Source: an uncultured virus (IMG/VR IMGVR_UViG_3300009499_000096)
Lineage: Duplodnaviria > Heunggongvirae > Uroviricota > Caudoviricetes
Direction: 5' to 3' (one strand)
Virus record (IMG/VR): IMGVR_UViG_3300009499_000096
Length of the DNA: 20,000 nt
Shown: piece after piece, positions 1,491-14,154 of the stretch
Numbering within the stretch: the stretch's first letter is position 1
How the letters are laid out: each line of letters opens with the position of its first letter
Program-made: the position numbers and the translations under genes
Notes under the pieces: generated by a model
Told to the model about the DNA's origin: nothing
The model's input: only the letters and a program-made list of their open reading frames with translations
The model's database searches: none

Positions 1491-1520
1491 AAATTCCATG
1501 GAAAGTGTTATAAAGTTTGT
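1491..1520. promoter_or_regulatory. Divergent archaeal promoter with palindromic operator-like motif
   Basis: Perfect palindrome TTCCATGGAA (1494-1503) next to a TATA-like TTATAAAG (1508-1515; reads CTTTATAA on the - strand), with BRE-like A-rich flanks. It lies between divergent genes. Confidence 0.6.
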
Positions 1521-1562
1521 TGCTGTTAGAATTTTCTAACAAGTTATTTTGGTTGAATTGGT

Positions 1563-1754
1563 ATGGGCAAAACAACTCATTATGGGAAACCAAAAACATA
1601 TCCATTCTTCTTTAGAGCTGAGAGAGGCAAAGGAGACACATTCATCAGTGGAACCTTCAAGACAAAGAAAGCTTGTAGGGCTGCTTCTAAAACCTATCCA
1701 AGTGCAAAATCCAACTCAAACTATCGAATCAGAATCATAGATAGGAGAAAATAA
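1563..1754 (+). CDS. Small basic protein 1 (63 aa)
   Basis: MGK start; motif FKTKKAC; first gene of a tightly packed array. Confidence 0.8.
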   Translation: MGKTTHYGKPKTYPFFFRAERGKGDTFISGTFKTKKACRAASKTYPSAKSNSNYRIRIIDRRK

Positions 1755-1756
1755 CC

Positions 1757-1930
1757 ATGGGTAAGCAACCAAAACCAAGAAGCAAAAAATCATGGACTTT
1801 TGTGCATACAAACCAAGAAACCAGAGAGACCTACCGTTTTAGGAAGATGGCTAATGGAACTATCAAGACAGAGAAATTTCTAGGCTGGAGAACTCCAAAG
1901 GGGAAAATCATTCCACCAAGGGGAAAATGA
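1757..1930 (+). CDS. Small basic protein 2 (57 aa, MGKQPKPRSKKSWTFVH...PPRGK), absent from ORF track
   Basis: Translated by hand; fills the gap exactly, with TAA-CC-ATG and TGA-CC-ATG junctions. Confidence 0.8.
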   Translation: MGKQPKPRSKKSWTFVHTNQETRETYRFRKMANGTIKTEKFLGWRTPKGKIIPPRGK

Positions 1931-1932
1931 CC

Positions 1933-2169
1933 ATGGGGAAAAAAACATCAATAGGTAAAAGAACAATCCATGCTCTTATCTATGGAACAAACAAAACTAA
2001 GACATTCAAAAGTAAGGTCATTCGTGAACAAACTTTGGCAAAAGGGTATCCTGTCTACCACTTCACTACCCCTAGTGGTGAGCATAGAAATACCTCAAGA
2101 AAGGGCATCTATGGTGGTGTAGTTCTTACCAAATCAGAAGCAAGAACGAAAAGAAAGAGGAGAAAATAA
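1933..2169 (+). CDS. Small basic protein 3 (78 aa)
   Basis: Start moved to MGKK at 1933 to match the junction pattern; contains LTKSEA. Confidence 0.8.
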   Translation: MGKKTSIGKRTIHALIYGTNKTKTFKSKVIREQTLAKGYPVYHFTTPSGEHRNTSRKGIYGGVVLTKSEARTKRKRRK

Positions 2170-2171
2170 CA

Positions 2172-2381
2172 ATGGTTCAAAGAAGTTATAAACCAACAAA
2201 GGTGGATGGTAGAAAAGTAGTATTTGTTGTTCGTGATGGAAGAATATGGGCAAGAGTTCCTTCACTTTCAAAAAAGCAGTTCTTAGGAATGGGCTCTACC
2301 AAGACTGAAACGATTGCAGATGTCAGAAAAGCCATGAAACACATCAAAGTTACTGCAAAGGGAAAAAGAAGGAGACGATAG
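2172..2381 (+). CDS. Small basic protein 4 (69 aa), HicB N-terminal-like fold
   Basis: RDGRIWARVPSL...GMGSTKTETIADVRKAM matches the HicB pattern (DG.Y.A.VP.L...G.T..EA...R.A). Confidence 0.65.
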   Translation: MVQRSYKPTKVDGRKVVFVVRDGRIWARVPSLSKKQFLGMGSTKTETIADVRKAMKHIKVTAKGKRRRR

Positions 2382-2383
2382 AA

Positions 2384-2566
2384 ATGGGTAAGTTTAGACC
2401 TTCTGGAGCAACTTTACATAAAACCAAAATTAGAGCCCAGAAAGAAGCTAAGGCTCTAAGGAAGATAGGCTGGAGAGCAGAAGTTCAGCCTTCCACTAAG
2501 ACAACACAGAAAAGAAGTCCAACTCTAAAATGGGTTTGCCACATAGGGCAAAAAAAGAAAAGGTGA
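2384..2566 (+). CDS. Small basic protein 5 (60 aa), beta-alpha-beta-beta (SPOR-like) pattern
   Basis: HKTKIRAQKEAKALRKIGWRAEV...KWVCHIG. Confidence 0.75.
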   Translation: MGKFRPSGATLHKTKIRAQKEAKALRKIGWRAEVQPSTKTTQKRSPTLKWVCHIGQKKKR

Positions 2567-2571
2567 TTTTC

Positions 2572-2721
2572 TTGAGTAAACAATCTCCAGTTTATGATAA
2601 GAAACCATCTAGGAAACTTTTGGAGTCGGCTGCATCCACTCACAAAACATTGTTCCATGCTGTTGTGGAAGGCATGATTGAGAGGGAAGAGAAGAAGAGG
2701 AAGAAAAGGAGATTCTGGTAA
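2572..2721 (+). CDS. Small basic protein 6 (49 aa)
   Basis: TTG start at 2572, preceded by SD AGGTGA (2561-2566) overlapping the upstream stop. Confidence 0.65.
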   Translation: MSKQSPVYDKKPSRKLLESAASTHKTLFHAVVEGMIEREEKKRKKRRFW

Positions 2722-2723
2722 AA

Positions 2724-2924
2724 ATGCCTTGTAGAACTAAGAGAAAAAAGAAGAATCTACTCCAAAAACATCTCTCAGAGAAAGTAATGTTTGGTGGAAT
2801 TTTGGTTACTAGAGGAAAAATGGTTGCTGAGTTGCAGAGGATAGCTAAGATACAATTTCCCAAGGATACACTTAGACAAACTAGGGTAGTTAATATTTAC
2901 CTTGCTGGGAAAGGGAGACGATAA
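2724..2924 (+). CDS. Small basic protein 7 (66 aa)
   Basis: TAA-AA-ATG junction; K/R-rich termini. Confidence 0.75.
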   Translation: MPCRTKRKKKNLLQKHLSEKVMFGGILVTRGKMVAELQRIAKIQFPKDTLRQTRVVNIYLAGKGRR

Positions 2925-2926
2925 TC

Positions 2927-3214
2927 ATGGGCAAGAAAATGAAATTAAGTCCAATTCAGCGAAAAGTGCTCACTAAAATCAAGAAGAGACAAATCAAGAA
3001 CATAGAGAGACCAATAAGGATTGGTGGAAAACAAGCTCTCTCTCCCAAAGGCAAACCATTGAAGGCATCATTCCTGAATATCCCTAACAAGGAAGCTACT
3101 ACATTCAGAACCTTGGAGAAGAAAGGGTTGATCTCAGCCTTTGGAAAAACTGAATACTACACAAATTTCAGACTCACTCAGAAAGGGAAAGCACAATTCA
3201 ACATGAGGAAATAA
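2927..3214 (+). CDS. Small basic protein 8 (95 aa), winged helix-turn-helix
   Basis: LSPIQRKVL...TFRTLEKKGLI...FRLTQKGK is the typical wHTH (MarR-like) signature. Confidence 0.75.
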   Translation: MGKKMKLSPIQRKVLTKIKKRQIKNIERPIRIGGKQALSPKGKPLKASFLNIPNKEATTFRTLEKKGLISAFGKTEYYTNFRLTQKGKAQFNMRK

Positions 3215-3216
3215 CC

Positions 3217-3375
3217 TTGCCTAAAAAACTCACTATATTTGAAAAACATCAATTGGCGATAGCTAAGAGGACATTGAAGATGCCTAATGTAATGGCTGCT
3301 GTGATGGGTGGCATGACTAAGGCTGAAGCCAAGCGTATTGTTAATAGGCTTGGTTCTAAAAGGAGAGGAAAATAA
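3217..3375 (+). CDS. Small basic protein 9 (52 aa, MPKKLTIFEKHQLAIAKRTL...KRRGK), absent from ORF track
   Basis: Translated by hand; TAA-CC-TTG start; ends in GK-TAA-CC-ATG; contains MTKAEA. Confidence 0.75.
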   Translation: MPKKLTIFEKHQLAIAKRTLKMPNVMAAVMGGMTKAEAKRIVNRLGSKRRGK

Positions 3376-3377
3376 CC

Positions 3378-3818
3378 ATGGGTAAGAAAATGAAGTTTGT
3401 CTTGATCAGGAGAACCAAGATAGGACAAACGACTCAGCGATTTACCACTAAGAAGAGAGCCAGTGACATAGCTCTGAAGTGGATTCGATACAGAGAAGGT
3501 ATTGAAGGTGGAGTTCTCAGCATGACTTCCACAGCTCAGGTGTTGCCTATCGGGGAGTTTAACCGACAGCAAAAAGCTCTCCTTGAGAGAGATAGACGCA
3601 TTGATGAGAGTAGAAGGCTGAGAATGAAGGCTGCAAGAACTGGCAAAGTGCAAGTTGGCAAAGGACTTGGTAATCTCCTCAAAGAGAAGAAGATGGCTTG
3701 TGGTTGCCCATCAGGAAAACACAAACCTTGGTGTCCATTCCACAAACCAAGCAAAGCTGAAAGAGAGAGAGTTCGTAAAGCAGAACAACATTGGGAAAGG
3801 AGTTTGGGAATACGATGA
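3378..3818 (+). CDS. Basic protein 10 (146 aa) with CxC-x4-H-x3-C Zn-binding motif
   Basis: MGKK start; FTTKKRA motif; CGCPSGKHKPWCPFH. Confidence 0.8.
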   Translation: MGKKMKFVLIRRTKIGQTTQRFTTKKRASDIALKWIRYREGIEGGVLSMTSTAQVLPIGEFNRQQKALLERDRRIDESRRLRMKAARTGKVQVGKGLGNLLKEKKMACGCPSGKHKPWCPFHKPSKAERERVRKAEQHWERSLGIR

Positions 3819-4075
3819 AGAAAAAGAGAGCTCCTAGAAAGAAGTGGCTTTCTCCCTCTATGAACCCAAGAAAACTGTTTGATGTAGAACTCTTGGATAC
3901 TAGACCATCACCAAGTAGAACAATCTTGAAAGTTACCAGAAGTGGAACACATCAGATGCAAGCAGTTAGAAAAGCTGCTAAAATTCTTCCACCTTCTATC
4001 AACTTACAGGAATGGAGAGATCCAAGGGAGAAGAAGTATTCAAGATATGTCTTTTTGACAGGAGAATTGAAGTAA
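3815..4075 (+). CDS. Small basic protein 11 (86 aa)
   Basis: Start placed at the ATGA overlap at 3815. Confidence 0.75.
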   Translation: MKKKRAPRKKWLSPSMNPRKLFDVELLDTRPSPSRTILKVTRSGTHQMQAVRKAAKILPPSINLQEWRDPREKKYSRYVFLTGELK

Positions 4076-4076
4076 G

Positions 4077-4277
4077 ATGCCAAGGGCTGTTAGTAGAAAA
4101 ACGAAAAAACCTCTTCTAGCTAAACGGAAGTCTCATGCACATGATTTGCTGCTTGAAATGAAAGAAGCTAATGAAAGAAGTGTCAAAAAAGGTGTTGCTA
4201 CGAAACTCTCATACAGAGTAGTTAAGCTCCAAAAAGGTTATGGAATTTACTACAAGAAAACTGGAAGATGGAGATAA
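4077..4277 (+). CDS. Small basic protein 12 (66 aa)
   Basis: KRKSHA helix plus YRVVKLQKGYGIY hairpin, resembling 6826-7059. Confidence 0.75.
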   Translation: MPRAVSRKTKKPLLAKRKSHAHDLLLEMKEANERSVKKGVATKLSYRVVKLQKGYGIYYKKTGRWR

Positions 4278-4282
4278 TCAAA

Positions 4283-4591
4283 ATGAAATTGAAAAACCAC
4301 AAGAGGGCTCAGAAACTTGTTGGAACAACCATTGAGTTTGTTCCATGGTATCAGACGTTCAGAAAAGACACTACAATGACTGGAAAATTAATGAGAATCA
4401 GAGGAGCTATGGGTAGTAAAAGAGGGAGACCAGCAAAATCAGCAGACAAGATGATGGTCATTAAACCTACTGGGAAAACTAAGAAATGGCTCAAGGATAT
4501 TGGGCTCATGAAACCAAAGCAGAAAACTATTGTTCGGCTTCTTACTGGGCATAAAGTCAGAAGCCAAACCAAACTGAAGAGGGGAAAATAA
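4283..4591 (+). CDS. Basic protein 13 (102 aa), possible small beta-barrel
   Basis: ATG at 4283 after a GGAG SD; AQKLVGTTIEF...MTGKLMRIRG. Confidence 0.75.
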   Translation: MKLKNHKRAQKLVGTTIEFVPWYQTFRKDTTMTGKLMRIRGAMGSKRGRPAKSADKMMVIKPTGKTKKWLKDIGLMKPKQKTIVRLLTGHKVRSQTKLKRGK

Positions 4592-4593
4592 CC

Positions 4594-4884
4594 ATGAAGG
4601 GAAATCATAAGAAAATAGCCAGTGAACGTGAAACTATCCGAAAAGGTATAAGCCAACTGCTCAAGGAGATTGGGATGTCTAGTGCCAGCAAAACAGTGTT
4701 ACAGGTCAAGAAACCAGAGGATTTGAGCACGTTCATCCGAACTGCTCAGGGAAGATTCAAGCAGATGGGAGCTGGAGCTCCACCTAAGATTCAGAAATCT
4801 GTATCAACTGCTGTTCAGATGCTGGCTCAGTTGGAGAAGAAATACAAAAAACCCTTGAAGTATGAGCTTACAAAAATCTGGTGA
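4594..4884 (+). CDS. Small basic helical protein 14 (96 aa)
   Basis: GGGGAAAA-TAA-CC-ATG junction. Confidence 0.8.
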   Translation: MKGNHKKIASERETIRKGISQLLKEIGMSSASKTVLQVKKPEDLSTFIRTAQGRFKQMGAGAPPKIQKSVSTAVQMLAQLEKKYKKPLKYELTKIW

Positions 4885-4889
4885 TTGAC

Positions 4890-5138
4890 ATGGCTAAGAA
4901 GAAAGACAAGAAGAAAGAGAAGAAGAAGAAAAAGGACAAGGGGAAAGATAAGAAGAAATCCTTGGTCTCAGTAGAAAAAACTACTGATTCTGGAAAATTG
5001 AAAAAGAGCAAGAAGAAAGGAAAGAAAAAAGGCAAGAAAAAAGGCAAGAAGAAATCTGGGCTCTCAGTAGCTGAAGCTATTGGTTTGGGAGAATTTAAAC
5101 TGAAACCTCCAAGTGAAGTATTGTTTGAAGAGGTATGA
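4890..5138 (+). CDS. Poly-lysine, histone H1/protamine-like low-complexity protein 15 (82 aa)
   Basis: SD GGTGA (4880-4884); MAKKKDKKKEKKKKK...(KKKG)3KKK. Confidence 0.8.
   Translation: MAKKKDKKKEKKKKKDKGKDKKKSLVSVEKTTDSGKLKKSKKKGKKKGKKKGKKKSGLSVAEAIGLGEFKLKPPSEVLFEEV
5010..5054 (+). repeat. 12-bp tandem repeat encoding KKKG x3.75
   Basis: aagaagaaagga aagaaaaaaggc aagaaaaaaggc aagaagaaa. Confidence 0.8.
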
Positions 5139-5141
5139 CAG

Positions 5142-5315
5142 ATGGCTAAGAAGAAACTGAGTGAAATGAGTTACAGTGAGATACTTCAGAGAAACATAGA
5201 TCGTCATAATCGGAAGAGAGCTAAAAGCTTGGCTATGTTCCAAGCTGAACAGAAGAGGCAAGGAAAGAAAGCTAATGAGCCCATAGACTTGATGAAAATG
5301 GTAATGGGTAGGTGA
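5142..5315 (+). CDS. Small basic protein 16 (57 aa, MAKKKLSEMSYSEILQRN...MVMGR), absent from ORF track
   Basis: Translated by hand; SD GAGG upstream; same first 15 nt as the 4890 ORF. Confidence 0.75.
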   Translation: MAKKKLSEMSYSEILQRNIDRHNRKRAKSLAMFQAEQKRQGKKANEPIDLMKMVMGR

Positions 5316-5321
5316 TTGTGA

Positions 5322-5477
5322 ATGGGAACACGTATTAGAAAGCATGGAGAAAAATCTTGGGAAGTTTATGGAACTGGATTTCCAGTGTTTATAGCACAAT
5401 CAAAGAAAAAAGCTGATTCTGTCGCTAAAAGACGAAGGACAATTCTCAAAAATCGTAGAAAGAAGAGGAGACGATAG
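5322..5477 (+). CDS. Small basic protein 17 (51 aa, MGTRIRKHGEKSWEVYG...KKRRR), absent from ORF track
   Basis: Translated by hand; SD AGGTGA; contains W-x-V...SKKKA motif. Confidence 0.75.
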   Translation: MGTRIRKHGEKSWEVYGTGFPVFIAQSKKKADSVAKRRRTILKNRRKKRRR

Positions 5478-5480
5478 AAG

Positions 5481-5888
5481 ATGAGTGCTGAACAGATTGG
5501 TGGAGTTGCTATGATGGGGATGGCTTTAGCTTCTCAAGCATTTGTGGTGGATATGGCAAGTAGTCTCATCACAGGGCAAACTAGGCTTACAACATTCAGC
5601 AGAAGGAGACCTAAAAGCAAGATTGCCAGAACTAAAGCTGGAAAACCATACTTCAGAATCATAGCTTATGAGAGTAGCCGACATGGATTAATAATTCCTA
5701 AAAGAAGAATTGCAAGGCTCCCAAAAACAGCTATCTCAGCTATGGGAACCTTCTTTGATCCCGACACACATCATACAATCGTGGAAAGGGCTGCTAGACT
5801 TCAAAAGGGTAAGAAGAGAAAGAGCCAAATCAAATCAGCCAGAGTTACCCTACCAGCAAGCACAGTTAGTAAAATGATATTTGGATAG
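5481..5888 (+). CDS. Basic protein 18 (135 aa) with hydrophobic G/A/M-rich N-terminus
   Basis: N-terminal IGGVAMMGMALASQAFVV followed by an R/K-rich domain. Confidence 0.8.
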   Translation: MSAEQIGGVAMMGMALASQAFVVDMASSLITGQTRLTTFSRRRPKSKIARTKAGKPYFRIIAYESSRHGLIIPKRRIARLPKTAISAMGTFFDPDTHHTIVERAARLQKGKKRKSQIKSARVTLPASTVSKMIFG

Positions 5889-5896
5889 GATGAAAA

Positions 5897-6124
5897 ATGA
5901 CAAGATACTACACAATCAGAGACAGATACACTAGCAAGGACTTGGTTCTCACCAAAGCTGAGGCTATGAGAGCTCATGAGAGAGCTAAAGCAATGAAGAA
6001 GAAAGTGGTTAAGAACTTGGAGAAAATAACATTCTCTAAAGTGAAGGGAGTCAGTGAAAGGTCTCTGTTTGAGCTGCAAGGAGTGTTACGTTATCAAAAA
6101 GGACTCAAGAAGGGGAGAAGCTGA
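5897..6124 (+). CDS. Small basic protein 19 (75 aa)
   Basis: YYTIRD...VLTKAEA. Confidence 0.8.
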   Translation: MTRYYTIRDRYTSKDLVLTKAEAMRAHERAKAMKKKVVKNLEKITFSKVKGVSERSLFELQGVLRYQKGLKKGRS

Positions 6125-6126
6125 CC

Positions 6127-6366
6127 ATGGGCTACGTGCTATATGTTCATAACAAGTTTGGCTCAGGTAAACGCAAAGGAAAACCGAAAGGATATGGACA
6201 ATGGCATCCATCAAAAGCCTCTGCTGAACGACATAGAAAGAATCAGAGAGATACCTACAAAGATAATCCCAAGGATTTGATGGGAACCAGAATCGTGAAA
6301 GTTAAAGCTAATCATTCAAGGTTATCCTCAAAACAAATCAGAAAAAAATCTTTGGAAAGTGAATGA
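6127..6366 (+). CDS. Small basic protein 20 (79 aa)
   Basis: TGA-CC-ATG junction; HPSKASAERH. Confidence 0.8.
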   Translation: MGYVLYVHNKFGSGKRKGKPKGYGQWHPSKASAERHRKNQRDTYKDNPKDLMGTRIVKVKANHSRLSSKQIRKKSLESE

Positions 6367-6368
6367 AA

Positions 6369-6620
6369 ATGGGTAAGAAACTTAAAGCTTTGAAACGTAA
6401 AATCAAAACTCTCAAGAAAGACGTGGAGAAGGACTATCGGAAAACGAAAAAGGAGCTCCAGAAGCAGAAGAAGAAGGCTGAGAAGAGATATGCTGGTGTC
6501 GGGAAGAAAGTTGCAAAGGTTCAGAAAACTGCTCAAGCATGGTCTCTTAAGGTTCCTACTACTGCTGAACTTATTGGATTGGATGAACTCACGAAAAAGA
6601 AGAAGAGGAGACGACACTAG
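6369..6620 (+). CDS. Small basic coiled-coil protein 21 (83 aa)
   Basis: MGKK start at 6369 (6363 also possible); Lys-rich heptads. Confidence 0.8.
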   Translation: MGKKLKALKRKIKTLKKDVEKDYRKTKKELQKQKKKAEKRYAGVGKKVAKVQKTAQAWSLKVPTTAELIGLDELTKKKKRRRH

Positions 6621-6622
6621 AA

Positions 6623-6823
6623 ATGTCTAAGAAATATGGCTACTTAGTAAGAGGAAAGAAGGTGAAACAGGGAAAATTCTGCAAGACTTTAGGTGAGGCT
6701 GGTAGAGAATTAGTTAGACAGTTACGTGCTGGTGTGGAAAATGTTAAGGTTTCACCAATTAAAAATAAGAAAATGGCTGACCAGTATTCAAAGAAAATCA
6801 TTAGAAAGAGGAAGGGGAAATAA
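6623..6823 (+). CDS. Small basic protein 22 (66 aa)
   Basis: FCKTLGEA...LRAGVENVKV. Confidence 0.8.
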   Translation: MSKKYGYLVRGKKVKQGKFCKTLGEAGRELVRQLRAGVENVKVSPIKNKKMADQYSKKIIRKRKGK

Positions 6824-6825
6824 CC

Positions 6826-7059
6826 ATGGTTAGAACTTTGAAGGAAACAAAATCAAGTTATGAAAGACCAAAAGGCTGGGGAATGTTCCATACACATTAC
6901 GGAAAGAAAACTCTTGCTGAACGTCATGCTAAAAGACTTGAGAGAACTGACCTCTTGACCACAGCTATAGTTAAAACTCCTAAAGGCTGGAATGTTCTTC
7001 ATAAATCCAATAAGAGAAGTCTGGAATTGGTCAGAAAACAAGTCGCAAAGAGGGGATAA
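6826..7059 (+). CDS. Small basic protein 23 (77 aa)
   Basis: GGGGAAA-TAA-CC-ATG junction; YGKKTLAERHAKRL...IVKTPKGWNVL. Confidence 0.8.
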   Translation: MVRTLKETKSSYERPKGWGMFHTHYGKKTLAERHAKRLERTDLLTTAIVKTPKGWNVLHKSNKRSLELVRKQVAKRG

Positions 7060-7062
7060 ATC

Positions 7063-7728
7063 ATGCCAAAGAGACATTCAGGTTTTCTTTCAGTAGGTGT
7101 AGAGATAGATAAGAGTATCAAAAATCTTAGAAAGACTCTCAGGAAAGAAGGCATCCCTATTGTAGCCATTAAAAGAGCATCGCCACATCCACTTTTTGAC
7201 TTGGATTTACCAAAGGGTTCTCATAGATACCTTGTCTCTGTTCCAGCAGCATATCTATATGGTCAAAGAGCTGAGTCTCTATCTGGTCTGAGGAAAAAAA
7301 AAGGGGAAATAATCATGCCTAAGAAAAGAAAGAAGAAAGTAGAGGAAGAGGAAAAACAATCAAGAGTTAGCCGATTACTAGGCTTGCCTCTGAAAGCCAT
7401 GATGAAGCTTGGAGACTGGGAGAGAAAACAGATTGACAAAATCAAAGCTAACAGGATACAAGATGATGCTTTGAAAGCTGAGTTGAAGGTGATTGAGGAT
7501 GCAGCTTACAAGGAAGAATCCAAGAAACTGGCAAAGCAGAGGGGAAAGAAGAAAGCCCATCAAAAGGGGAAGGGAACTGGGTTCTTTGGCGGTGTTAATC
7601 TGAAGATGCCAAACCTCATGGAAGGTATTGATGATCCTTTCAAAACTGATGGAGTGGACAATATGCTGGACACCACAGATAGAAATGCTGACGAATGGCA
7701 AGGTAAAAGGAGACGTGAGAAGAATTGA
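7063..7728 (+). CDS. Basic protein 24/25 (221 aa), probably two genes (7063-7312 and 7315-7728) fused by one extra A in an A9 run
   Basis: Internal AAGGGGAAA-TAA-TC-ATG (7301-7317) nearly duplicates the junction at 6812-6828. Confidence 0.7.
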   Translation: MPKRHSGFLSVGVEIDKSIKNLRKTLRKEGIPIVAIKRASPHPLFDLDLPKGSHRYLVSVPAAYLYGQRAESLSGLRKKKGEIIMPKKRKKKVEEEEKQSRVSRLLGLPLKAMMKLGDWERKQIDKIKANRIQDDALKAELKVIEDAAYKEESKKLAKQRGKKKAHQKGKGTGFFGGVNLKMPNLMEGIDDPFKTDGVDNMLDTTDRNADEWQGKRRREKN

Positions 7729-8021
7729 CACCAAAGAAGCCGACAACAAAACGTAAACCCTACAGGACAACTAGACGAATCAAAACTAAGAAGAAAACCA
7801 CTACTGAAGATGGTAAGAGGGAGTATCAGAGGAAATTGATGAGGGAAAGACGCAAGGAGCAGAAAGCCCTAATCAACTTTAGACCACCATCTCAAACAGT
7901 GTTCGGTCACTCTTTTGCCACTGAAGTTACAGGATTTCACCATCCTAGAGACAGCATCATCGCTGATATGATGGGCTTACAGGGCTTCAATGAGAAGAAG
8001 AAGAGGGTTAGCAAGAAATGA
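7725..8021 (+). CDS. Basic protein 26 (98 aa)
   Basis: TTGA overlap start; K/R/T-rich N-terminus; REYQRKLMRERR helix. Confidence 0.75.
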   Translation: MTPKKPTTKRKPYRTTRRIKTKKKTTTEDGKREYQRKLMRERRKEQKALINFRPPSQTVFGHSFATEVTGFHHPRDSIIADMMGLQGFNEKKKRVSKK

Positions 8022-8167
8022 GCAAGGAAATGAACCTAGGTAACAAGAGGGAACAAGCTTCCATCCACAAGATAGACCTATCTCATGATCTTTTGGCTCA
8101 GATTAGATGGACTGTGAGAGCCCAGAAGGAAGCTTTGAAGAGCAAGGAAGTGTTGAAGGAAAAATGA
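8018..8167 (+). CDS. Small protein 27 (49 aa, MSKEMNLGNKREQASIHKIDL...), absent from ORF track
   Basis: ATGA overlaps at both ends (8018-8021 and 8164-8167). Confidence 0.65.
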   Translation: MSKEMNLGNKREQASIHKIDLSHDLLAQIRWTVRAQKEALKSKEVLKEK

Positions 8168-9117
8168 GCAAACTTCACGTAAAGAAACTGAGAATTAGAA
8201 TCAAGAAGTTCGATGCAAGTAAGAAAGTTAAAGCTATGTCACGACAGCAAAGAGCTGTAGCTAGGAAAAAAATGATCACTGAATCCATGGCTTTTCAGAT
8301 GTGGTGGAACGCACGATCAACCCTTAGACCAATCCCATCCGATCCCTACAGAGCCTTCATGATAGACATAGCTCTGTATGCTAAACCTCATCACCAAGAA
8401 GTGTGGAAGCATAGAACAAACCGATTGGATTATCCACCTGTTGATTTCCCGAAAGGATTTCCCCGAAAAAGAAGGAGACTTCCACCAAGGAAAGATATTA
8501 AGAGATTCAAGAAGATCCCGAAAGCAGCCCAGAAAAGAAAACTCACTCCAGCAGAAAAATCTGTTGTGCAAGAAGTGGAGCAGTTCAACCTCAAATACCA
8601 TCTTCCTGAAACAAGAGTAGTGTTCCAAGAAAAAGTGAGTGGTGGAGCCCAATATGTTCATAGTGTTTTTGGTGGTATTCCAGCTATGATTCTTTTGCCA
8701 TCTCCTCTGATAGCTGGTATGGAAAAAGGCAAAGGATGGAAACAGCAAGCTGAAGGAACAATATTCCATGAACTAGGACACCATGCTCACGTAGCCTATG
8801 GATACAGTATTCCAACAACAAGTCCTTTGAGTAAAGCCATTCCGAAAGCATACTACTCTGTCAGCCGAAAGGAGAAAGAGAAAATAGCTTGGGGAGTTGC
8901 AAGGAGACACATTGAACGTGAGAAAGAAACTGGCTGGACACCTGTAATGGGCTGGTCAAAGAAAACTTTTCTAGGAACTTATCTTGGAACCACACCATTT
9001 ATGCAAGTTGTTCCTGAAGATTACCAAGTTCCTAAAATGCCTCAGATTCCTAAGAGATACAGGGTTCCTAGTCAGAAGAAGAAAACTGGAAAGAAAGGTT
9101 CCTTGTTATGGACATAG
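8164..9117 (+). CDS. Putative zincin metallopeptidase with long basic N-terminal extension (317 aa)
   Basis: TIFHELGHH (HExxH, 8767-8781) and downstream EKEKIAW (ExxA third ligand, gluzincin/ImmA-IrrE-like). Start reassigned to the ATGA overlap at 8164. Confidence 0.75.
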   Translation: MSKLHVKKLRIRIKKFDASKKVKAMSRQQRAVARKKMITESMAFQMWWNARSTLRPIPSDPYRAFMIDIALYAKPHHQEVWKHRTNRLDYPPVDFPKGFPRKRRRLPPRKDIKRFKKIPKAAQKRKLTPAEKSVVQEVEQFNLKYHLPETRVVFQEKVSGGAQYVHSVFGGIPAMILLPSPLIAGMEKGKGWKQQAEGTIFHELGHHAHVAYGYSIPTTSPLSKAIPKAYYSVSRKEKEKIAWGVARRHIEREKETGWTPVMGWSKKTFLGTYLGTTPFMQVVPEDYQVPKMPQIPKRYRVPSQKKKTGKKGSLLWT

Positions 9118-9152: not shown

Positions 9153-11711
9153 TTGAATCCAATGCCAATGAAAGTAATTGCAGCAAAGAAAGAGATTACT
9201 ACATCTGGCTTGACTCCCGAACAACAGGAAGCTTTCAATCCAGTAGCTGAAGAGTTCTGGACTCAAGTTGATGTGGAAGCTGCAAAGTCTCAAGAAGAGT
9301 TTGAAGCTCAGTTAGCTGGAGCTAAGAAAGAGGCATTGGCAACTTGGCAAGCAGAACTTCAAGGACAAGTTAGTAAGTCAGAGTTTGAAGCTGAAATCGC
9401 CAAGATGGAGCAAGAGCAGAGAGCTAAGTTTACAGGTGAAGTAGGAACCAAGGAATCTGAAGCTAGAGCAAAGTTTGAAGCTGAACTGGCTGAGAAACGA
9501 TCAGAGTTTCTGAGTGGACTTGAAACAGCTAAGAGAGCTGGTAAAAGACAGTGGCTTGCAACTTATAGACGACATTGGACACCAAGAGAAATGCGTTCTT
9601 GGGTAGTGGAGCAGAAAACTGGTTTTGAATCTGCTGTAGCTGGAGAACGTGAAGCCTTTGAATCACATCTAGGTGAATGGAAAGGTCTTGAATCACAAGC
9701 CTTTGAAAAGGGCTTAACTTCATGGAAGGAAGAACAGCTTGGAACATGGACTACACAAGCAGAACTATTGGCTGAAGGGCAAGAGCAGAGAATGAAGCTG
9801 GAAATGGCTTCATGGGAGTTTGCTGAAAGAGAGAAATGGACTAGCAAAATGCTTTCTTATCGTGAACAGCAAGCTAAGGTTCTTGAAGGATACAAGCTAG
9901 GTGAGTTCAAGGAAACAGCAAAGCCTCAGCCGACTAGCCTCAGCCAGCAAATCCTAGCATGGACACCACCTGACCTACCAGAGTGGAAAATAGAATTTCC
10001 CTTCTCAATCCCAGTGAAAGGTGGAGCTGTCCAGATAGGGTTTGATGTTGGAAAGTTCTTTGAAGGCTTGGCTAAAGGTGGAGCTGAAGCTGGAGCTGGA
10101 GTGATTGCTAGTGGAGAATCATTAGTGTATGGTGTAGGTGGATTGCTTGGTTTGCAAACACCAGCTCCACCACCTACTCTAACTGCTTCCCTACTACGAT
10201 CAGGTGTGAAAGGGTTAGGTGAAGCAACTGGACAGTGGAAAACAAGTTGGGAGTATGATGTTGGAGACATATTCATGGAACAGGGAGCTCCTTATGCTCT
10301 TGGAACATTGCTTGGAGACGTGTTGATGTTCTGGGCTGGAACCAAAGTGGAGAAAGCTGTAACAACAAGAGTAATCCCCAAGGTGAAGCAAGTTGTGTCA
10401 CCTGTAACTCAGAAAGTCAGCCAAGCTTGGAGACTGTCAAAAACTGGTATAGCCTTGGAGAAGTCAAAGATCGCATTAAGAACAGCTATGCCACATTGGA
10501 AAGGAAGCAGACTGGAAAGCTGGATTATTCAAAGGGGAATTAAACCATCCACTGAAACATTGGCTATTCACCAGCAACTAGGTAAATATTCAGCAAGGAC
10601 ATCTATTGGAGTTCCCAAATACACTGGTTACGCTGCTAAAGCAACCAGACAGATGGCTCCATCAGTCATAGATATTCCTGAACTGGCTAGAGCTCATGCA
10701 CTTGCTCAGAGAGGAGTTGTTACAGGAGCACAACTTCAAGCAGAAGCTGGAGCATGGGAAATGACCTTGTTCCCAAGAGCCACTGGTCAATTAATAACTA
10801 AAGGTGTAGCTCCAAGTGTGCTTGGAACAGCAGCCGAAATTGGACTAACAGAGTTTGCTAAGGGAGCTGTTGTTGGTGGATTGAAAATGACAGATCTCTC
10901 AAAGAGGATAACTTCTTGGAAGGTAAGAGCCTTAGCTAAACCACCAAAAGGATTCCTTGAGCCAGTGGTAGGTGGAAAACAAGCCTATACTCTTGGTGGA
11001 GCTGCTATGAGAAAACAGCTTGGTTTAGGAGCTGGAGTTCAATGGGAAATCGGCAAGCAATTAGGTGGAGCCTTCACCAAGCAGAAATGGGTAATGCCTA
11101 GTGCTGGACAATTCCACTTCCAAAAAGGCAAGCTTCCATCACTCAGCCGATTACTGAAAGAGCAGAAAGGAGTCACTTCAATACCTAGATTAATTGAGGT
11201 TCCAGCTAAAGCCATAGAATACTTACCAACTGTTGCTGGAGTAACTAAAATATCTTTACAGATTGGGCTCAAAGCTATTCCTCAAGTGCTTCCAATTATG
11301 GGAGCTGGAGCTTTATTAGGTGTCAAAACTGCTCCAAGAACTCCTGTGAGAATGAAGGAGAGAGTGATTCCATCCTTAAGCCAAGCTATAGGATTAGACA
11401 TAGGACTAGGAGTTCTCCCAGAAGTAGATCTGGGTTTGGGAGTAGCACAGGAATCAAAACTAGCTCCCCAACTGGCTCCAGTTCAGGAACTTGCTCAAGT
11501 AACAAAAGAAGTAGTTACTACTGTTCCTTGGTATGAACAACCAACAAAACAACCACCTTTGAGACCACGTAAGAAAGGAGAAGAAGAGCCTTTGAGAAAG
11601 TTCAAGCTGAGAAAATTTGTTGGTGAAGCAACAGTTTATCAGCGATACATAGCAAAACATCCGATAAGAGGAGTTAAAAGTGCAAGTAAATACATCTTTG
11701 GAAAATCCTAA
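9153..11711 (+). CDS. Large putative virion protein (852 aa): coiled coil, G/A-rich hydrophobic region, basic C-terminus
   Basis: 11/15-residue F/W-anchored repeats in the N-terminal ~250 aa; hydrophobic segments (LVYGVGGLLG; YALGTLLGDVLMFWAG). Confidence 0.75.
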   Translation: MNPMPMKVIAAKKEITTSGLTPEQQEAFNPVAEEFWTQVDVEAAKSQEEFEAQLAGAKKEALATWQAELQGQVSKSEFEAEIAKMEQEQRAKFTGEVGTKESEARAKFEAELAEKRSEFLSGLETAKRAGKRQWLATYRRHWTPREMRSWVVEQKTGFESAVAGEREAFESHLGEWKGLESQAFEKGLTSWKEEQLGTWTTQAELLAEGQEQRMKLEMASWEFAEREKWTSKMLSYREQQAKVLEGYKLGEFKETAKPQPTSLSQQILAWTPPDLPEWKIEFPFSIPVKGGAVQIGFDVGKFFEGLAKGGAEAGAGVIASGESLVYGVGGLLGLQTPAPPPTLTASLLRSGVKGLGEATGQWKTSWEYDVGDIFMEQGAPYALGTLLGDVLMFWAGTKVEKAVTTRVIPKVKQVVSPVTQKVSQAWRLSKTGIALEKSKIALRTAMPHWKGSRLESWIIQRGIKPSTETLAIHQQLGKYSARTSIGVPKYTGYAAKATRQMAPSVIDIPELARAHALAQRGVVTGAQLQAEAGAWEMTLFPRATGQLITKGVAPSVLGTAAEIGLTEFAKGAVVGGLKMTDLSKRITSWKVRALAKPPKGFLEPVVGGKQAYTLGGAAMRKQLGLGAGVQWEIGKQLGGAFTKQKWVMPSAGQFHFQKGKLPSLSRLLKEQKGVTSIPRLIEVPAKAIEYLPTVAGVTKISLQIGLKAIPQVLPIMGAGALLGVKTAPRTPVRMKERVIPSLSQAIGLDIGLGVLPEVDLGLGVAQESKLAPQLAPVQELAQVTKEVVTTVPWYEQPTKQPPLRPRKKGEEEPLRKFKLRKFVGEATVYQRYIAKHPIRGVKSASKYIFGKS

Positions 11712-11982
11712 ATCTCTATTCCCTACACGAATAGCTTTCGTATGGTCAATGGTGTTTCTAGGAATGATTATCTATGCCTTAGTCTGGTTCATGCTGGGTT
11801 CAGTAACTATGACAATTATAGAGGCTATGGAATCAGCCTTTACTTTTAGTGGAAACTGGGATTACGTGGTGGATCTAATCAAAAACATCATCTTGTGGCA
11901 TCCGATAATTTCAATATTCGGCTGGATACTCTGGGGATTCCTAAACAGTATGAGAAGGGATGTGAGATATGATATTGGCTAA
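11680..11982 (+). CDS. Small two-TM membrane/virion protein (100 aa)
   Basis: GAGGAG SD before GTG; two hydrophobic helices; basic C-terminus (MRRD). Confidence 0.75.
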   Translation: MQVNTSLENPKSLFPTRIAFVWSMVFLGMIIYALVWFMLGSVTMTIIEAMESAFTFSGNWDYVVDLIKNIILWHPIISIFGWILWGFLNSMRRDVRYDIG

Positions 11983-13717: not shown

Positions 13718-14154
13718 TGAGAATGACACCATTCACCATGGTTATGTTCTTCATCGCATTAAATGTAAGCCTATACATCATTAACGAAACTGGTGTTATC
13801 ACTCCATCTGGAACTGAAGCTCATCAGCCAATAGTTAGCCCAACAGAAGTATCTGGAACCCTTGTTGATATAAGTGGAACCAGCTTGCTAATGGCTGGAG
13901 TTCCACTTGTTATAGGAACCATAATCGGCTGGATAACTAGAAACATCTGGGCTGGTGGAACCCTTGCCATCATCTTGTTTGCATTAGACTTGCTTTTCCC
14001 AGTAGTCAGATGGGTATTGTTCGGTATCCCTGAGTTTCTCACTCAGATAGGAGTCCATTATTCTATAGTTCTAGGAATCACAGCTTTAATGAGTGTCGTC
14101 TGGTTCTGGTTCATCCTTGGCTTCATAGGGCAAAGACAACTGGAGACAACCTAA
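13717..14154 (+). CDS. Multi-pass membrane protein (145 aa)
   Basis: About four hydrophobic segments; TAATG overlap. Confidence 0.8.
   Translation: MRMTPFTMVMFFIALNVSLYIINETGVITPSGTEAHQPIVSPTEVSGTLVDISGTSLLMAGVPLVIGTIIGWITRNIWAGGTLAIILFALDLLFPVVRWVLFGIPEFLTQIGVHYSIVLGITALMSVVWFWFILGFIGQRQLETT

What the first reader, a model, noticed from the sequence alone, without database searches (positions are those of the whole stretch)
1563..8167. Array of 26-27 consecutive tiny, highly basic proteins feeding into the virion structural operon
Seen: 6.6 kb of back-to-back ORFs (mostly 49-146 aa), nearly all extremely K/R-rich, typically starting M[GPAS]K[KR] and ending in K/R runs. They have little pairwise identity and continue co-directionally into a protease and membrane structural genes. 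Known: spindle-shaped viruses such as SSV1 typically carry about one basic DNA-binding virion protein (VP2); adenovirus VII and baculovirus P6.9 are other condensing proteins. Inference: this may be an undescribed multi-component viral 'nucleoid' or cargo system, in which dozens of cationic microproteins are co-packaged with the genome to condense or shield it, or delivered as effectors.
Basis: partly seen in the sequence, partly recalled or inferred. Interest (0 to 1): 0.9.

Follow-up and report, generated by a model that had tools for sequence, protein, structure and literature searches.

The report
Shuffling array of small basic genes
An uncharacterised, probably archaeal virus-like element starts its long surface-and-membrane-protein operon with 26 real, tightly coupled genes for tiny positively charged proteins, and these genes are swapped in and out as whole units even between nearly identical strains.

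Summary
Positions 1563-8167 carry 26 back-to-back + strand ORFs of 49-221 aa, with pI 9.8-12 and 99.3% coding density.

- **Real genes.** In two related metagenome loci the orthologues give pooled dN/dS 0.18. Positive charge is kept across GC 0.40-0.55.
- **Conserved module.** The array belongs to an undescribed element family. The order is an archaeal-type promoter with a palindrome, then 0-28 small basic genes, a zincin-like HExxH protein, a 700-1055 aa basic protein, acidic membrane-anchored proteins, and a two-helix hydrophobic ~88 aa protein.
- **No known family.** None of the small proteins matches Pfam, PHROGs or NCBIfam, so they are not ribosomal proteins. They are not SSV1 VP2.
- **Few conserved members.** Only two or three families recur across loci. 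One carries a motif that is also fused to HNH nucleases, so DNA binding is inferred.
- **Cassette turnover.** The other ORFs are lineage-specific. Variants about 99% identical in the structural genes differ by whole-ORF deletions, replacements and reordering. The breakpoints lie in the repeated Shine-Dalgarno/stop/start junctions, which also encode many of the K/R tails.

Best reading: a hyperplastic cassette array of nucleic-acid-binding accessory proteins made together with the structural genes and probably packaged with the DNA. Virion location is untested, and a fixed multi-component nucleoid is unlikely.

The parts
1497..1515 (+). Archaeal-type promoter: purine-rich BRE-like stretch and TATA box (TTATAAA at 1508-1514)
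   Evidence: Sequence read. The same CATGnAAAGnnTTATAAA block aligns upstream of the first gene of the module in W, L004, L007, L009 and L016 (alignment A5).
1525..1540 (+). Palindrome GTTAGAATTTTCTAAC over the expected transcription start. Probable operator. It is followed by the conserved TTCTAACAAG.
   Evidence: One exact match in the window. Conserved in W, L004, L007, L009 and L016, and partly in L013. Its function is inferred.
1563..1754 (+). o1, 63 aa, pI 10.7, net +14
1757..1930 (+). o2, 57 aa, pI 11.5. Absent together with o3 from variants in runs X3 and X4.
   Evidence: joint 1756->2172
1927..2169 (+). o3, 80 aa, pI 11.2
2172..2381 (+). o4, 69 aa, pI 11.9
2384..2566 (+). o5, 60 aa, pI 11.8
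2530..2721 (+). o6, 63 aa, pI 10.5 (37-nt overlap with o5; start uncertain)
2724..2924 (+). o7, 66 aa, pI 11.6. In variants it is preceded by the o11 tail.
   Evidence: joint 4066->2724
2927..3214 (+). o8, 95 aa, pI 11.3. In variants its body is joined in frame to the o13 tail.
   Evidence: joint 3201->4580
3217..3375 (+). o9, 52 aa, pI 11.9 (TTG start)
3378..3818 (+). o10, 146 aa, pI 11.1. Contains a C-x-C...C-x2-H stretch.
   Evidence: The zinc-binding reading is from the sequence only and was not tested.
3791..4075 (+). o11, 94 aa, pI 10.9. Homologue in L006.
4077..4277 (+). o12, 66 aa, pI 10.8
4268..4591 (+). o13, 107 aa, pI 11.6. Homologue in L004.
4594..4884 (+). o14, 96 aa, pI 10.3
4881..5138 (+). 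o15, 85 aa, 40% K+R, with K-rich 12-nt tandem repeats and a C-terminal AEAIGL motif (family-B-like)
5142..5315 (+). o16, 57 aa, pI 10.5. Homologue in L004.
5322..5477 (+). o17, 51 aa, pI 12.0. Skipped in contigs of X3 and X4.
   Evidence: joint 5308->5478
5481..5888 (+). o18, 135 aa, pI 11.8, hydrophobic N-terminus. Homologue in L006.
5897..6124 (+). o19, 75 aa, pI 10.5
6127..6366 (+). o20, 79 aa. Paralogue of o23 (family C).
6363..6620 (+). o21, 85 aa, 39% K+R, with a C-terminal AELIGL motif (family-B-like)
6623..6823 (+). o22, 66 aa. In X2, X3 and X4 its body is replaced by 171 unlike bases between the ATG and the tail.
   Evidence: joint 6625->6806
6826..7059 (+). o23, 77 aa, family C. Orthologue in L013 (E 3e-29). 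SPOR-like alpha/beta predicted structure as a lead.
7063..7728 (+). o24, 221 aa. An N-terminal cassette fused to core family B (K-rich helix). The junction relic is at 7295-7332, after the A9 run at 7294-7302.
7725..8021 (+). o25, 98 aa, core family A. Motif KTTTxEGKRxYxRxxMRxRR followed by ADMMGL. Present in 12 loci.
8018..8167 (+). o26, 49 aa, pI 9.8, the least basic ORF. No homologue found.
8164..9117 (+). Basic (pI 10.3) HExGH protein. N-terminal helical basic region plus a zincin-like metallopeptidase domain (residues about 124-280 of the 317-aa form). The longest ORF starts at 8107.
9153..11711 (+). 852-aa basic protein: coiled-coil N-terminal half and Gly/Ala-rich hydrophobic C-terminal half. 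Conserved in 7 loci.
11680..11982 (+). 100-aa conserved membrane protein
11969..13717 (+). 582-aa acidic protein with a DNRLRE domain and C-terminal membrane segments
13717..14154 (+). 145-aa conserved membrane protein
14155..15987 (+). 610-aa acidic protein with a signal-like N-terminus and C-terminal membrane segments. The relative in L016 carries DUF2341.
16038..19435 (+). Three acidic proteins (476, 305 and 340 aa). The first two end in a near-identical membrane-anchor module and the third ends in a similar one. The region 16215-17007 is hypervariable among near-identical variants.
19788..20000 (+). Start of the highly conserved two-helix hydrophobic ~88-aa protein (capsid-protein-like), cut by the window end
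1743..1759 (+). Junction repeat AGGRGAAAATRACCATG (Shine-Dalgarno, K/R tail codons, stop, start). Further copies at 1919, 2158, 3364, 4580 and 6812.
   Evidence: The breakpoints fall in or beside these copies.

Best explanation
**Overall reading.** The array is a hyperplastic set of independent gene cassettes for small, folded, nucleic-acid-binding basic proteins. It sits at the head of the long operon that also encodes the probable particle proteins of an undescribed archaeal virus-like element.

**Shown here**
- Each cassette ends in K/R codons (AAG AGG AGA ...) that contain the Shine-Dalgarno sequence of the next cassette. A stop codon follows, and the next start comes 2 nt later or overlaps it. 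Translation is therefore probably coupled.
- The same repeated about 17-nt junction is where cassettes are lost, replaced and reordered.
- Two families (A and B) are conserved across the family of elements, and a third (C) recurs in five of the loci compared.
- An HExxH zincin-like protein and a 700-1055 aa basic protein are conserved beside them.
- The remaining cassettes are strain- or lineage-specific.

**Inferred**
- The proteins are made together with the structural proteins. They bind the genome through their charge.
- Family A binds DNA through a motif that is also appended to HNH nucleases.
- The proteins are enclosed with the DNA.
- The conserved members and the protease-like protein form the core nucleoprotein and maturation set.
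- The variable cassettes are accessory passengers that act when the genome enters a new cell, for example in counter-defence or host chromatin takeover. This would resemble the basic internal proteins of phage T4.
For: **Real genes**
- Coding density is 99.3%, against a shuffle maximum of 32%.
- Pooled dN/dS is 0.18 over the 14 L007/L009 orthologue pairs found for the 16 L007 array ORFs. The adjacent structural genes give 0.25.

**Charge is selected**
- Net charge is +0.13 to +0.24 per residue in 10 loci.
- Over the same loci GC rises from 0.40 to 0.55 and K/(K+R) falls from 0.66 to 0.40.

**Shared operon**
- Gaps are tiny from 1563 to 19435.
- A conserved TATA-plus-palindrome promoter lies only in front of the first gene of the module in 5 loci.
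- In L010, L016 and L018 the 3-5 small basic genes lie between the HExxH gene and the large basic protein gene.

**Coupling**
- An SD-like 4-mer lies at -16 to -6 of 17 of 25 starts in the window, 14 of 17 in L007 and 19 of 26 in L013. It sits inside the tail codons.

**Turnover**
- There are 94 clusters from 137 array ORFs, and 70 are singletons.
- L007 and L009 (dS 0.11) differ by 2 and 3 whole ORFs.
- Contigs of a second study match 9122-16209 with 73 differences. They nevertheless show joints 1756->2172, 3201->4580, 4066->2724, 5308->5478 and 6625->6806 with 171 other bases.
- Three of these five joints (1756->2172, 3201->4580 and 6625->6806) have at least one end in or beside a junction repeat.

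**Nucleic-acid binding**
- The family A motif occurs C-terminal to HNH_3/HNH domains in 4 of 72 related representatives. It is duplicated in two of them.

**Protease**
- H202, E203, G205, H206 and E239 are invariant in 29 sequences.
- The top structural matches are almost all zincin peptidases: ERAP1 Z 8.8, SPRTN Z 8.7 (rmsd 3.0 over 108 aa) and BepA Z 8.5.

**Analogue**
- T4 internal proteins are basic, number about 300 copies each, are ejected with the DNA, are targeted by a short peptide and are cut by the prohead protease. IPI blocks restriction (passages read in PMC9026906).
Against: - No evidence places any of these proteins in a particle. No virion, proteome or RNA data exist for this family.
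- That the element is a virus rests on gene architecture. The two-helix protein has no significant match to the His1 or SSV1 capsid proteins (hhalign probability 2-20%) or to BFVD models (best E 0.7).
- The family is absent from IMG/VR, from the phage record collection and from GTDB genomes.
- One relative (L014) has the module without any small basic gene upstream, so the array is dispensable for the module.
- Structural Z scores of 8-9 lie within the range that unrelated models reach (note).
- The HNH association of the family A motif implies DNA binding only by analogy.
- Purifying selection of 0.18 is also what intracellular regulators or anti-defence proteins would show.
- 'Late' timing of the operon is assumed.
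Confidence: 0.4

Rival explanations
1. Intracellular accessory proteins that are not packaged. The cassettes would be host-takeover, anti-defence or regulatory proteins that act in the infected cell. They would be basic because they bind host or viral nucleic acids, and they would merely share a promoter with the structural genes.
For: - Cassette-level turnover between near-identical genomes resembles hyperplastic accessory regions of phages. Compare T4-type phages (PMC2839356 and PMC4122927; search listing and abstract starts only).
- dN/dS is 0.18.
- Most cassettes have no conserved targeting motif.
Against: - Uniform strong positive charge across more than 100 unrelated proteins is not typical of anti-defence sets, and it is kept under selection.
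- The cassettes sit at the head of, or inside, the conserved structural module and not in a separate early region.
Confidence: 0.28
2. One reading: a fixed multi-component nucleoid, in which all 26 proteins together condense and shield the genome as obligate structural parts.
For: - High charge, co-expression and translational coupling suggest near-equal production.
- Larger contigs tend to carry more cassettes: 106 kb with about 26-28, 73 kb with 26, and 59-62 kb with 16-17. The contigs are incomplete, so this is weak.
Against: - 70 of 94 clusters are singletons.
- Variants about 99% identical lose 2, 5 or 1 cassettes or swap one.
- L014 has none, and L010, L016 and L018 have 3-5.
- One copy of each protein carries about +430 charges (my sum of the net charges). 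A 73-kb duplex carries about 147,000 phosphates (my arithmetic from the contig length).
- The proteins are not low-complexity condensers.
Confidence: 0.12
3. The element is not a virus. The window would be part of a plasmid-like or integrated element, or a chromosomal island, that encodes cell-surface proteins. The small basic proteins would serve the element's own chromatin, partition or transfer.
For: - No hallmark virus gene was recognised in about 200 kb of related loci.
- The family is absent from IMG/VR.
- One homologue of the two-helix protein is filed in a Bathyarchaeia MAG.
Against: - Contigs of 59-106 kb carry homing endonucleases inserted between the conserved genes.
- There is a hypervariable receptor-like region.
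- An extremely conserved small two-helix hydrophobic protein occurs in one or two copies, as described for spindle-shaped virus capsid proteins (passages in PMC9894754 and PMC10541130; model).
- The family is absent from 185,579 species-representative genomes.
Confidence: 0.12
4. The ORFs are non-functional by-products. Purine-rich DNA with few stop codons and many SD-like strings would throw up ORFs that are translated but do nothing.
For: - Strong A and G excess on the + strand (AT skew about 0.3).
- Most ORFs have no homologue.
Against: - dN/dS is 0.18.
- Shuffles give 13% coverage against 99.3% observed.
- Charge is kept when GC changes.
- Deletions keep frames and junctions intact.
- Some cassettes are conserved at E 1e-8 to 1e-29 across distant loci.
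Confidence: 0.04

Closest known systems
Internal proteins (IPI, IPII, IPIII) of phage T4 and their locus
   Same: Small basic proteins made with the head proteins, enclosed with the DNA in hundreds of copies and ejected into the host. At least one acts against host restriction. A short targeting peptide and a maturation protease are involved (passages read in PMC9026906). Here there are small basic proteins in the structural operon next to a protease-like gene, and a short conserved motif ([AS][DE]x[ILVM]G[LFMI]) in a subset.
   Different: T4 has three such proteins and this window has 26. There is no sequence relation. The T4 protease is a serine protease, while the one here is zincin-like. 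The T4 targeting peptide is N-terminal and shared by all IPs, whereas the motif here is C-terminal and found in only 11 of 127 array proteins. Packaging is unproven here. The known variability of IP loci among T-even phages is recalled, not read.
Hyperplastic regions of T4-type phages with PeSL junction motifs
   Same: Blocks of small, mostly novel ORFs differ between close relatives by insertion, deletion and replacement. The events are mediated by a short repeated motif between the genes (PMC2839356 and PMC4122927: search listing and abstract starts). Here a repeated about 17-nt junction lies at cassette borders and at the observed breakpoints.
   Different: By the title of PMC4122927, a PeSL is a composite promoter-terminator motif, so those cassettes carry their own transcription signals. 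Here the junction is a translational unit (SD, stop and start) that overlaps the coding tail. The products are uniformly basic, and the array heads the structural operon.
Ribosomal protein operons (S10-spc-alpha type)
   Same: Twenty or more small, very basic, mutually unrelated proteins are encoded back to back with translational coupling. They are folded proteins with basic extensions (established knowledge, recalled).
   Different: No ribosomal-protein family match in Pfam or NCBIfam for the 26 window proteins, nor in Pfam for 90 proteins of related loci. Ribosomal proteins are universally conserved, whereas these turn over between strains.
Viral DNA-condensing proteins: SSV1 VP2, adenovirus VII/mu with the adenoviral protease, baculovirus P6.9
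   Same: Basic, virus-encoded and genome-associated. In adenovirus the core precursors are cut by a DNA-bound protease (recalled). SSV1 VP2 is 74 aa with pI 11.4.
   Different: Those systems have one to a few conserved proteins per virus. The best phmmer E-value of VP2 against all proteins here is 0.12. Most cassettes here are of normal sequence complexity with 33% hydrophobic residues.
Spindle-shaped archaeal viruses (Fuselloviridae, Halspiviridae, Thaspiviridae, Itzamnaviridae and others)
   Same: A small, very hydrophobic capsid-type protein of two helices joined by a short turn, sometimes in two copies. Large signal-peptide/C-terminal-anchor proteins. Genomes can reach the 70-kb range (72.6 kb for tepeuvirus PBV144; passages in PMC9894754 and PMC10541130). 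The model here has helices 3-37 and 40-81.
   Different: No significant sequence or structure match to His1 VP21, SSV1 VP3 or BFVD models. Five peptide motifs of this family were not found in the ANME-1 virome supplements. No array of basic genes is mentioned in the passages read.

Membership tests
Ribosomal proteins | Match to a ribosomal-protein family model | tested here: not met
   None of the 26 window ORFs reaches any Pfam or NCBIfam cut-off, and none of the 90 related array ORFs reaches a Pfam cut-off. The few sub-threshold rows are unrelated families.
SSV1 VP2-type virion DNA-binding protein | Sequence similarity to VP2 | tested here: not met
   phmmer of SSV1 VP2 against all window and locus proteins gave a best E of 0.12.
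SSV1 VP2-type virion DNA-binding protein | Presence in virions and DNA binding | not testable with these tools
   No particles or proteomes exist for this family.
Protamine-like or low-complexity condensing proteins (P6.9, adenovirus mu/VII) | Arg/Lys-dominated low-complexity sequence | tested here: not met
   Window array: 27.6% K+R, 33% hydrophobic residues, mean entropy 3.78 bits. Only o15 has K-rich tandem repeats.
Zincin (gluzincin-like) metallopeptidase, for the HExxH protein at 8164-9117 | HExxH motif plus a downstream Glu, all conserved | tested here: met
   H202, E203, G205, H206 and E239 are invariant in 29 sequences.
Zincin (gluzincin-like) metallopeptidase, for the HExxH protein at 8164-9117 | Catalytic-domain fold | tested here: inconclusive
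   AF2 model with pLDDT 79. In VIA-align the top rows are nearly all zincins at Z 7-8.8 over residues 124-280, but such Z values also occur by chance. Foldseek found nothing at E<=0.001. The profile against PDB sequences hit Ste24p at E 0.016. There is no Pfam hit.
Spindle-shaped virus major capsid protein | About 70-100 aa, with two hydrophobic helices joined by a short turn | tested here: met
   AF2 model pLDDT 82.5 with helices 3-37 and 40-81. Alignments A2 and A7.
Spindle-shaped virus major capsid protein | Detectable homology to a known capsid protein | tested here: inconclusive
   hhalign against His1 VP21 gave probability 7.8% (8 sequences) and 20.5% (49 sequences). Against SSV1 VP3 it gave 2.4%. 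The best BFVD hit had E 0.72.
T4-type hyperplastic region with PeSL | Repeated motif at cassette borders that coincides with indel and replacement breakpoints | tested here: met
   Junction repeat families D3-D5, D7 and D10. Three of the five array joints (1756->2172, 3201->4580 and 6625->6806) have at least one end in or beside a repeat copy.
T4-type hyperplastic region with PeSL | The motif is a promoter plus a terminator stem-loop | tested here: not met
   The junction is SD, stop and start. The operator palindrome occurs once in the window, in front of the first ORF. Terminator-like sites number 13 against 16.2 expected. No search for further archaeal promoters inside the array was made.
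T4 internal proteins | Shared capsid-targeting peptide removed by the maturation protease; packaged and ejected | not testable with these tools
   Only a C-terminal motif in 11 of 127 array proteins. Cleavage and packaging are unknown.
SPOR-like alpha/beta small domain (for o23) | Fold similarity | tested here: inconclusive
   The ESM Atlas's own model has pLDDT 0.69. SPOR-domain parts align at TM 0.47-0.54. There is no Pfam hit.

The most novel reading that the evidence does not exclude
The array is a charge-addressed cargo system. Any small protein that is basic enough rides into the particle on the DNA and is delivered with it. The element therefore keeps a rapidly reshuffled library of up to about 28 pre-made effectors, such as counter-defence or host-chromatin factors. 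These are exchanged as cassettes by recombination at the SD/stop/start junctions. The conserved families A and B and the DNA-associated zincin-like protease would form the fixed core that organises or releases them. This would be a new way for a virus to deliver a variable protein payload, found in a widespread and so far unrecognised group of large archaeal viruses.
Probability: 0.25. Interest if true: 0.85.

Novelty: new variant of a known kind. Interest (0 to 1): 0.7.

Why it matters
The array marks a widespread but unrecognised family of large archaeal elements.
- The two-helix protein has at least 201 homologues (E <= 0.001), on contigs of up to 106 kb.
- The family is missing from IMG/VR, from the phage records and from species-representative genomes.

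It also gives a clean natural example of gene-cassette shuffling in which the recombination site is the translational junction itself. In that arrangement part of the protein's basic tail is dictated by the next gene's ribosome-binding site.

If the proteins are packaged, this would be the largest known set of virus-delivered small proteins. It would also be a direct route to new archaeal counter-defence or chromatin-acting factors.

Family A defines a short motif shared with HNH nucleases that can be tested as a DNA-binding module.

Tried and rejected

- Whole-genome search of the window's own assembly: no genome is held.
- The records behind L007, L009 and L013 could not be searched as whole records.
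- Accession OP413839 is not in the phage collection.

**Searches without relatives or matches**
- The 852-aa protein has no relative in IMG/VR. The word-indexed protein search returned only itself.
- tblastn of the 582-aa protein, the HExxH protein, the 792-aa protein of L018 and the two-helix protein against 50,697 phage records: no match.
- The HExxH profile found nothing in IMG/VR or in the GTDB genomes.
- PHROGs gave no hit for any array ORF.
- ANME-1 virome supplements: five peptide motifs of this family were not found. Sequences wrapped over lines could hide a match.
- No tRNA genes in the window.

**The idea that the cassettes are diverged paralogues**
- All-against-all phmmer and blastp found only o20/o23.
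- A profile of family C pulled in 3 further ORFs above the best shuffled decoy. The rest scored at decoy level.
- Rejected as a general explanation.

**Other rejected readings**
- Stop-codon reassignment or one long gene. Most junctions change frame (2-nt gaps) and each ORF has its own SD and start.
- Sigma-70 promoters and intrinsic terminators are not enriched: 29 against 37.6 expected, and 13 against 16.2.

**Expression, literature and unused tools**
- No RNA holder is listed among the sequencing runs.
- The high contig depth at 4670-5336 I attribute to the K-rich repeat (AAGAAG-type) drawing in contigs of other organisms, so it was ignored.
- Literature searches turned up no paper that mentions such an array, in the listings of all three searches or in the passages read from two papers.

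Full report
**1. The observation**

The six-frame ORF list and per-ORF statistics confirm 26 consecutive + strand ORFs between 1563 and 8167.
- Lengths are 49-221 aa, pI 9.8-12.0, K+R 19-40% and net charge +4 to +26.
- Of the 25 junctions, 11 are 2-nt gaps, 5 are 4-nt overlaps, 6 are gaps of 1-8 nt and 3 are longer overlaps.
- The ORFs cover 99.3% of the region. In 200 shuffles the mean was 13% and the maximum 32%.
- 'M[GPAS][KR]' begins 12 of 26 ORFs, or 15 if alternative starts within 5 residues are counted. 15 of 26 end with at least 3 K/R in the last 6 residues.
- Only o20 and o23 are detectably similar to each other.
- o24 holds an internal copy of the inter-gene junction (7295-7332) just after an A9 run, so it looks like two cassettes read as one.

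**2. These are real genes with a selected charge**

None of the 26 proteins reaches a Pfam, PHROGs or NCBIfam threshold. Nor do 90 array proteins from related loci in Pfam. They are therefore not ribosomal proteins, and they are not relatives of SSV1 VP2 (best E 0.12).

In two related metagenome loci that differ by dS 0.11, orthologue pairs were found for 14 of the 16 L007 array ORFs. They give a pooled dN/dS of 0.18. Four adjacent large genes give 0.25.

Across ten loci the array DNA ranges from GC 0.40 to 0.55 and K/(K+R) falls from 0.66 to 0.40. Net charge stays at +0.13 to +0.24 per residue. The charge is therefore selected and is not a by-product of A-rich DNA.

Hydrophobic residues make up 33-38%, and the mean per-protein sequence entropy is 3.7-3.9 bits. 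These are not protamine-like strings, apart from o15, which has K-rich tandem repeats.

For o23 the ESM Atlas holds a model (pLDDT 0.69). Its nearest structures include SPOR-domain parts at TM 0.47-0.54. This is a lead only.

**3. The context is a conserved module of an undescribed element family**

The HExxH protein downstream (8164-9117 in the gene-caller's form, P0002) has 32 metagenomic homologues. A scan of metagenome contigs with their alignment returned 18 loci.

ORF tiling of these loci and cross-comparison show a shared order:
- a promoter;
- 0 to about 28 small basic genes;
- the HExxH protein;
- a 700-1055 aa basic protein;
- a protein of about 100 aa;
- an acidic protein of about 385-580 aa (DNRLRE domain in the window);
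- a 145-aa membrane protein;
- an acidic protein of about 600-900 aa (DUF2341 in L016);
- one or two copies of a very conserved hydrophobic protein of about 88 aa.

L013 (contig 106 kb) has about 26-28 small basic genes. L007 and L009 have 16-17, and L004 at least 16. L010, L016 and L018 have 3-5, placed after the HExxH gene. L014 has none. This tiling was automatic and approximate. It dropped o26 and took an alternative frame for o1, and a few non-array ORFs of short loci entered the 137-protein set.

The window's own contig is 73,423 bp.

The family is not in IMG/VR, not in the phage record collection and not in 185,579 species-representative genomes.

The 88-aa protein has at least 201 homologues. 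One is filed in a Bathyarchaeia MAG, which is a weak host hint. Its AF2 model is a hairpin of two long helices. That fits what two papers describe for spindle-virus capsid proteins (passages in PMC9894754 and PMC10541130). Homology to His1 VP21 or SSV1 VP3 is not significant, and the BFVD search is uninformative. Homing endonuclease genes sit between the conserved genes in L013, and an HNH gene lies in L005. I treat 'virus' as probable and 'spindle-shaped' as open.

**4. Promoter and coupling**

Upstream of the first gene of the module, five loci share CATGnAAAGnnTTATAAA. About 10-16 nt downstream comes a palindrome GTTAGAAnnTTCTAAC, followed by AAG. In the window the TATA box is at 1508-1514 and the palindrome at 1525-1540. 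The palindrome occurs only once in the window. This is an archaeal-type promoter with a probable operator over the start site; the function is inferred. No bacterial-type promoters or terminators are enriched.

Inside the arrays, SD-like 4-mers lie 6-16 nt before 17 of 25 starts in the window, 14 of 17 in L007 and 19 of 26 in L013. They lie within the last codons of the preceding ORF (AAG AGG AGA ... stop).

**5. Core and variable cassettes**

Clustering of the 137 array ORFs gave 94 clusters, of which 70 are singletons.
- **Family A** (o25) is present in 12 loci. It has the invariant pattern KTT..G...Y....M...R. An exhaustive profile search found 73 representatives at E <= 0.001 among 1.84 billion proteins. 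In 4 of the 72 scanned, the motif lies C-terminal to an HNH_3/HNH nuclease domain. In P0164 and P0166 it is duplicated. By analogy with other nuclease-associated modules (recalled), I infer DNA binding.
- **Family B** (o24) is in 8 loci. It is a K-rich helix followed by a short motif.
- **Family C** (o20, o23) extends to L013 and L004, and weakly to L007 and L009.
- The motif [AS][DE]x[ILVM]G[LFMI] near the C-terminus occurs in 11 of 127 array proteins (families A and B, o15, o21). Shuffles gave 0.3. Orthologues are not independent. It could be a cleavage or docking site; this was not tested.

**6. The HExxH protein**

Its alignment has H202, E203, G205, H206 and E239 invariant. The AF2 model has pLDDT 79. 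Over residues 124-280 it matches zincin peptidase domains almost exclusively:
- ERAP1, Z 8.8;
- SPRTN, Z 8.7, rmsd 3.0 over 108 aa;
- BepA, Z 8.5;
- abylysin, Z 7.7;
- BlaR1, Z 7.2;
- ArdC, Z 6.9 (all).

Foldseek gave nothing at E <= 0.001. The profile against PDB sequences hit Ste24p at E 0.016. The Atlas structural neighbours are M48/M56 families at TM 0.35-0.42. Such Z values can arise by chance. Together with the invariant catalytic pattern I accept 'zincin-like, probably a peptidase'. Its N-terminal third is a basic helical region, which is compatible with DNA association (inference).

**7. Cassette turnover**

L007 and L009 differ by two and three whole ORFs.

Stronger evidence comes from contigs of four runs of a second study, laid on the window. 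One contig matches 9122-16209 with 73 differences. Yet in the array the contigs show:
- a join 1756->2172, which removes o2 and o3 exactly from start codon to start codon;
- a join 3201->4580 with one extra base, which removes o9-o13 and joins the o8 body in frame to the o13 tail (my reading of the sequence around both ends);
- a join from 4066 back to 2724, so that the o11 tail comes before o7, in all four runs;
- a join 5308->5478, so that o17 is missing or replaced;
- replacement of the o22 body by 171 unlike bases between its ATG and its tail.

Three of these five joins (1756->2172, 3201->4580 and 6625->6806) have at least one end in or beside the repeated junction AGGRGAAAATRACCATG and its relatives. 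The repeat has 6 copies of 17 nt, and longer families reach 38 nt. Contigs cannot prove absence, but the bridging joins are positive evidence.

The region 16215-17007, at the start of the first of three acidic membrane-anchored proteins, is also hypervariable. That is what would be expected of a host-recognition protein.

**8. Interpretation**

**Shown:** a conserved operon head made of translationally coupled cassettes for basic proteins. It has a small conserved core, and the other cassettes turn over quickly at junction repeats.

**Inferred:**
- the proteins bind nucleic acid;
- they are made with the particle proteins;
- they are therefore probably enclosed with the genome.

Families A and B, the large basic protein and the zincin-like protein would form the fixed nucleoprotein and maturation set. 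The variable cassettes would be accessory passengers.

The nearest functional analogue is the set of basic internal proteins of phage T4 (PMC9026906, passages read). The nearest evolutionary analogue is the PeSL-mediated shuffling in T4-type phages (PMC2839356 and PMC4122927, listing and abstract starts only).

A fixed 26-part nucleoid is unlikely given the turnover. Purely intracellular roles remain a serious rival. My confidence in the packaged-accessory reading is about 0.4.

**9. Novelty**

Three literature searches and the passages read from two papers turned up no description of such an array. No homologue of the module lies in the virus collections searched.

I rate it a new variant of known kinds (hyperplastic accessory regions, internal virion proteins). 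It has unusual features:
- uniform extreme basicity;
- a position at the head of the structural operon;
- a recombination junction that is at once a coding tail, an SD, a stop and a start.

Noticed in passing
window 7294-7332: An A9 homopolymer is followed by a complete junction-like sequence (GGGGAAATAATCATGCCTAAG) inside o24. One A fewer would end an 82-residue cassette in RKKKGK* and start family B at the ATG at 7315. This may be a genuine fusion, an assembly error in the homopolymer, or a slippage site. Contigs of X2 and X5 that cover it carry one gap each somewhere in that stretch (table 8); the position is not shown.
   Followed up: partly
window 16038-19435: Three acidic proteins (476, 305 and 340 aa); the first two end in a near-identical two-segment membrane-anchor module (...PYVYxAISxWSLALIxGVGAVL...ILAPFLGV) and the third in a similar one. 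They have no homologue in the 18 related loci. The region 16215-17007 is hypervariable among near-identical variants.
   Followed up: partly
L013 14275-15054 and 16955-17767: Two genes with NUMOD3 plus restriction-endonuclease-like domains (homing endonuclease type) are inserted between conserved module genes. L005 10488-11027 has an HNH_3 plus HTH protein.
   Followed up: no
window 2-427 (+), cut at the window start: The C-terminal part of a protein conserved in 7 related loci as a protein of about 273-308 aa encoded upstream of the module (E 1e-31 to 3e-43). No Pfam family.
   Followed up: partly
proteins P0020 and P0021 (alignment A1, columns about 410-480): Two HExxH homologues carry a C-terminal extension of about 65 aa that looks like a small basic cassette fused to the protease-like protein (strand, strand, 'SK.EA...AKRL' helix, strand).
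   Followed up: no
window 4896-5054: 12-nt and 30-nt tandem repeats (AAGAAGAAAGAC type) encode the K-rich stretch of o15. They attract contigs of unrelated organisms when reads are laid.
   Followed up: no
window 19406-19702 (-): A 98-aa ORF on the opposite strand lies between the last anchored protein and the two-helix protein gene. No family hit. It might be a regulator, but this was not examined.
   Followed up: no
L010 18172-18718 and L018 12648-13197: The two-helix hydrophobic protein gene is present as two tandem divergent copies in these loci and as one copy in others. Two capsid-protein copies are also reported for the ANME-1 Itzamnaviridae (passage in PMC9894754).
   Followed up: partly
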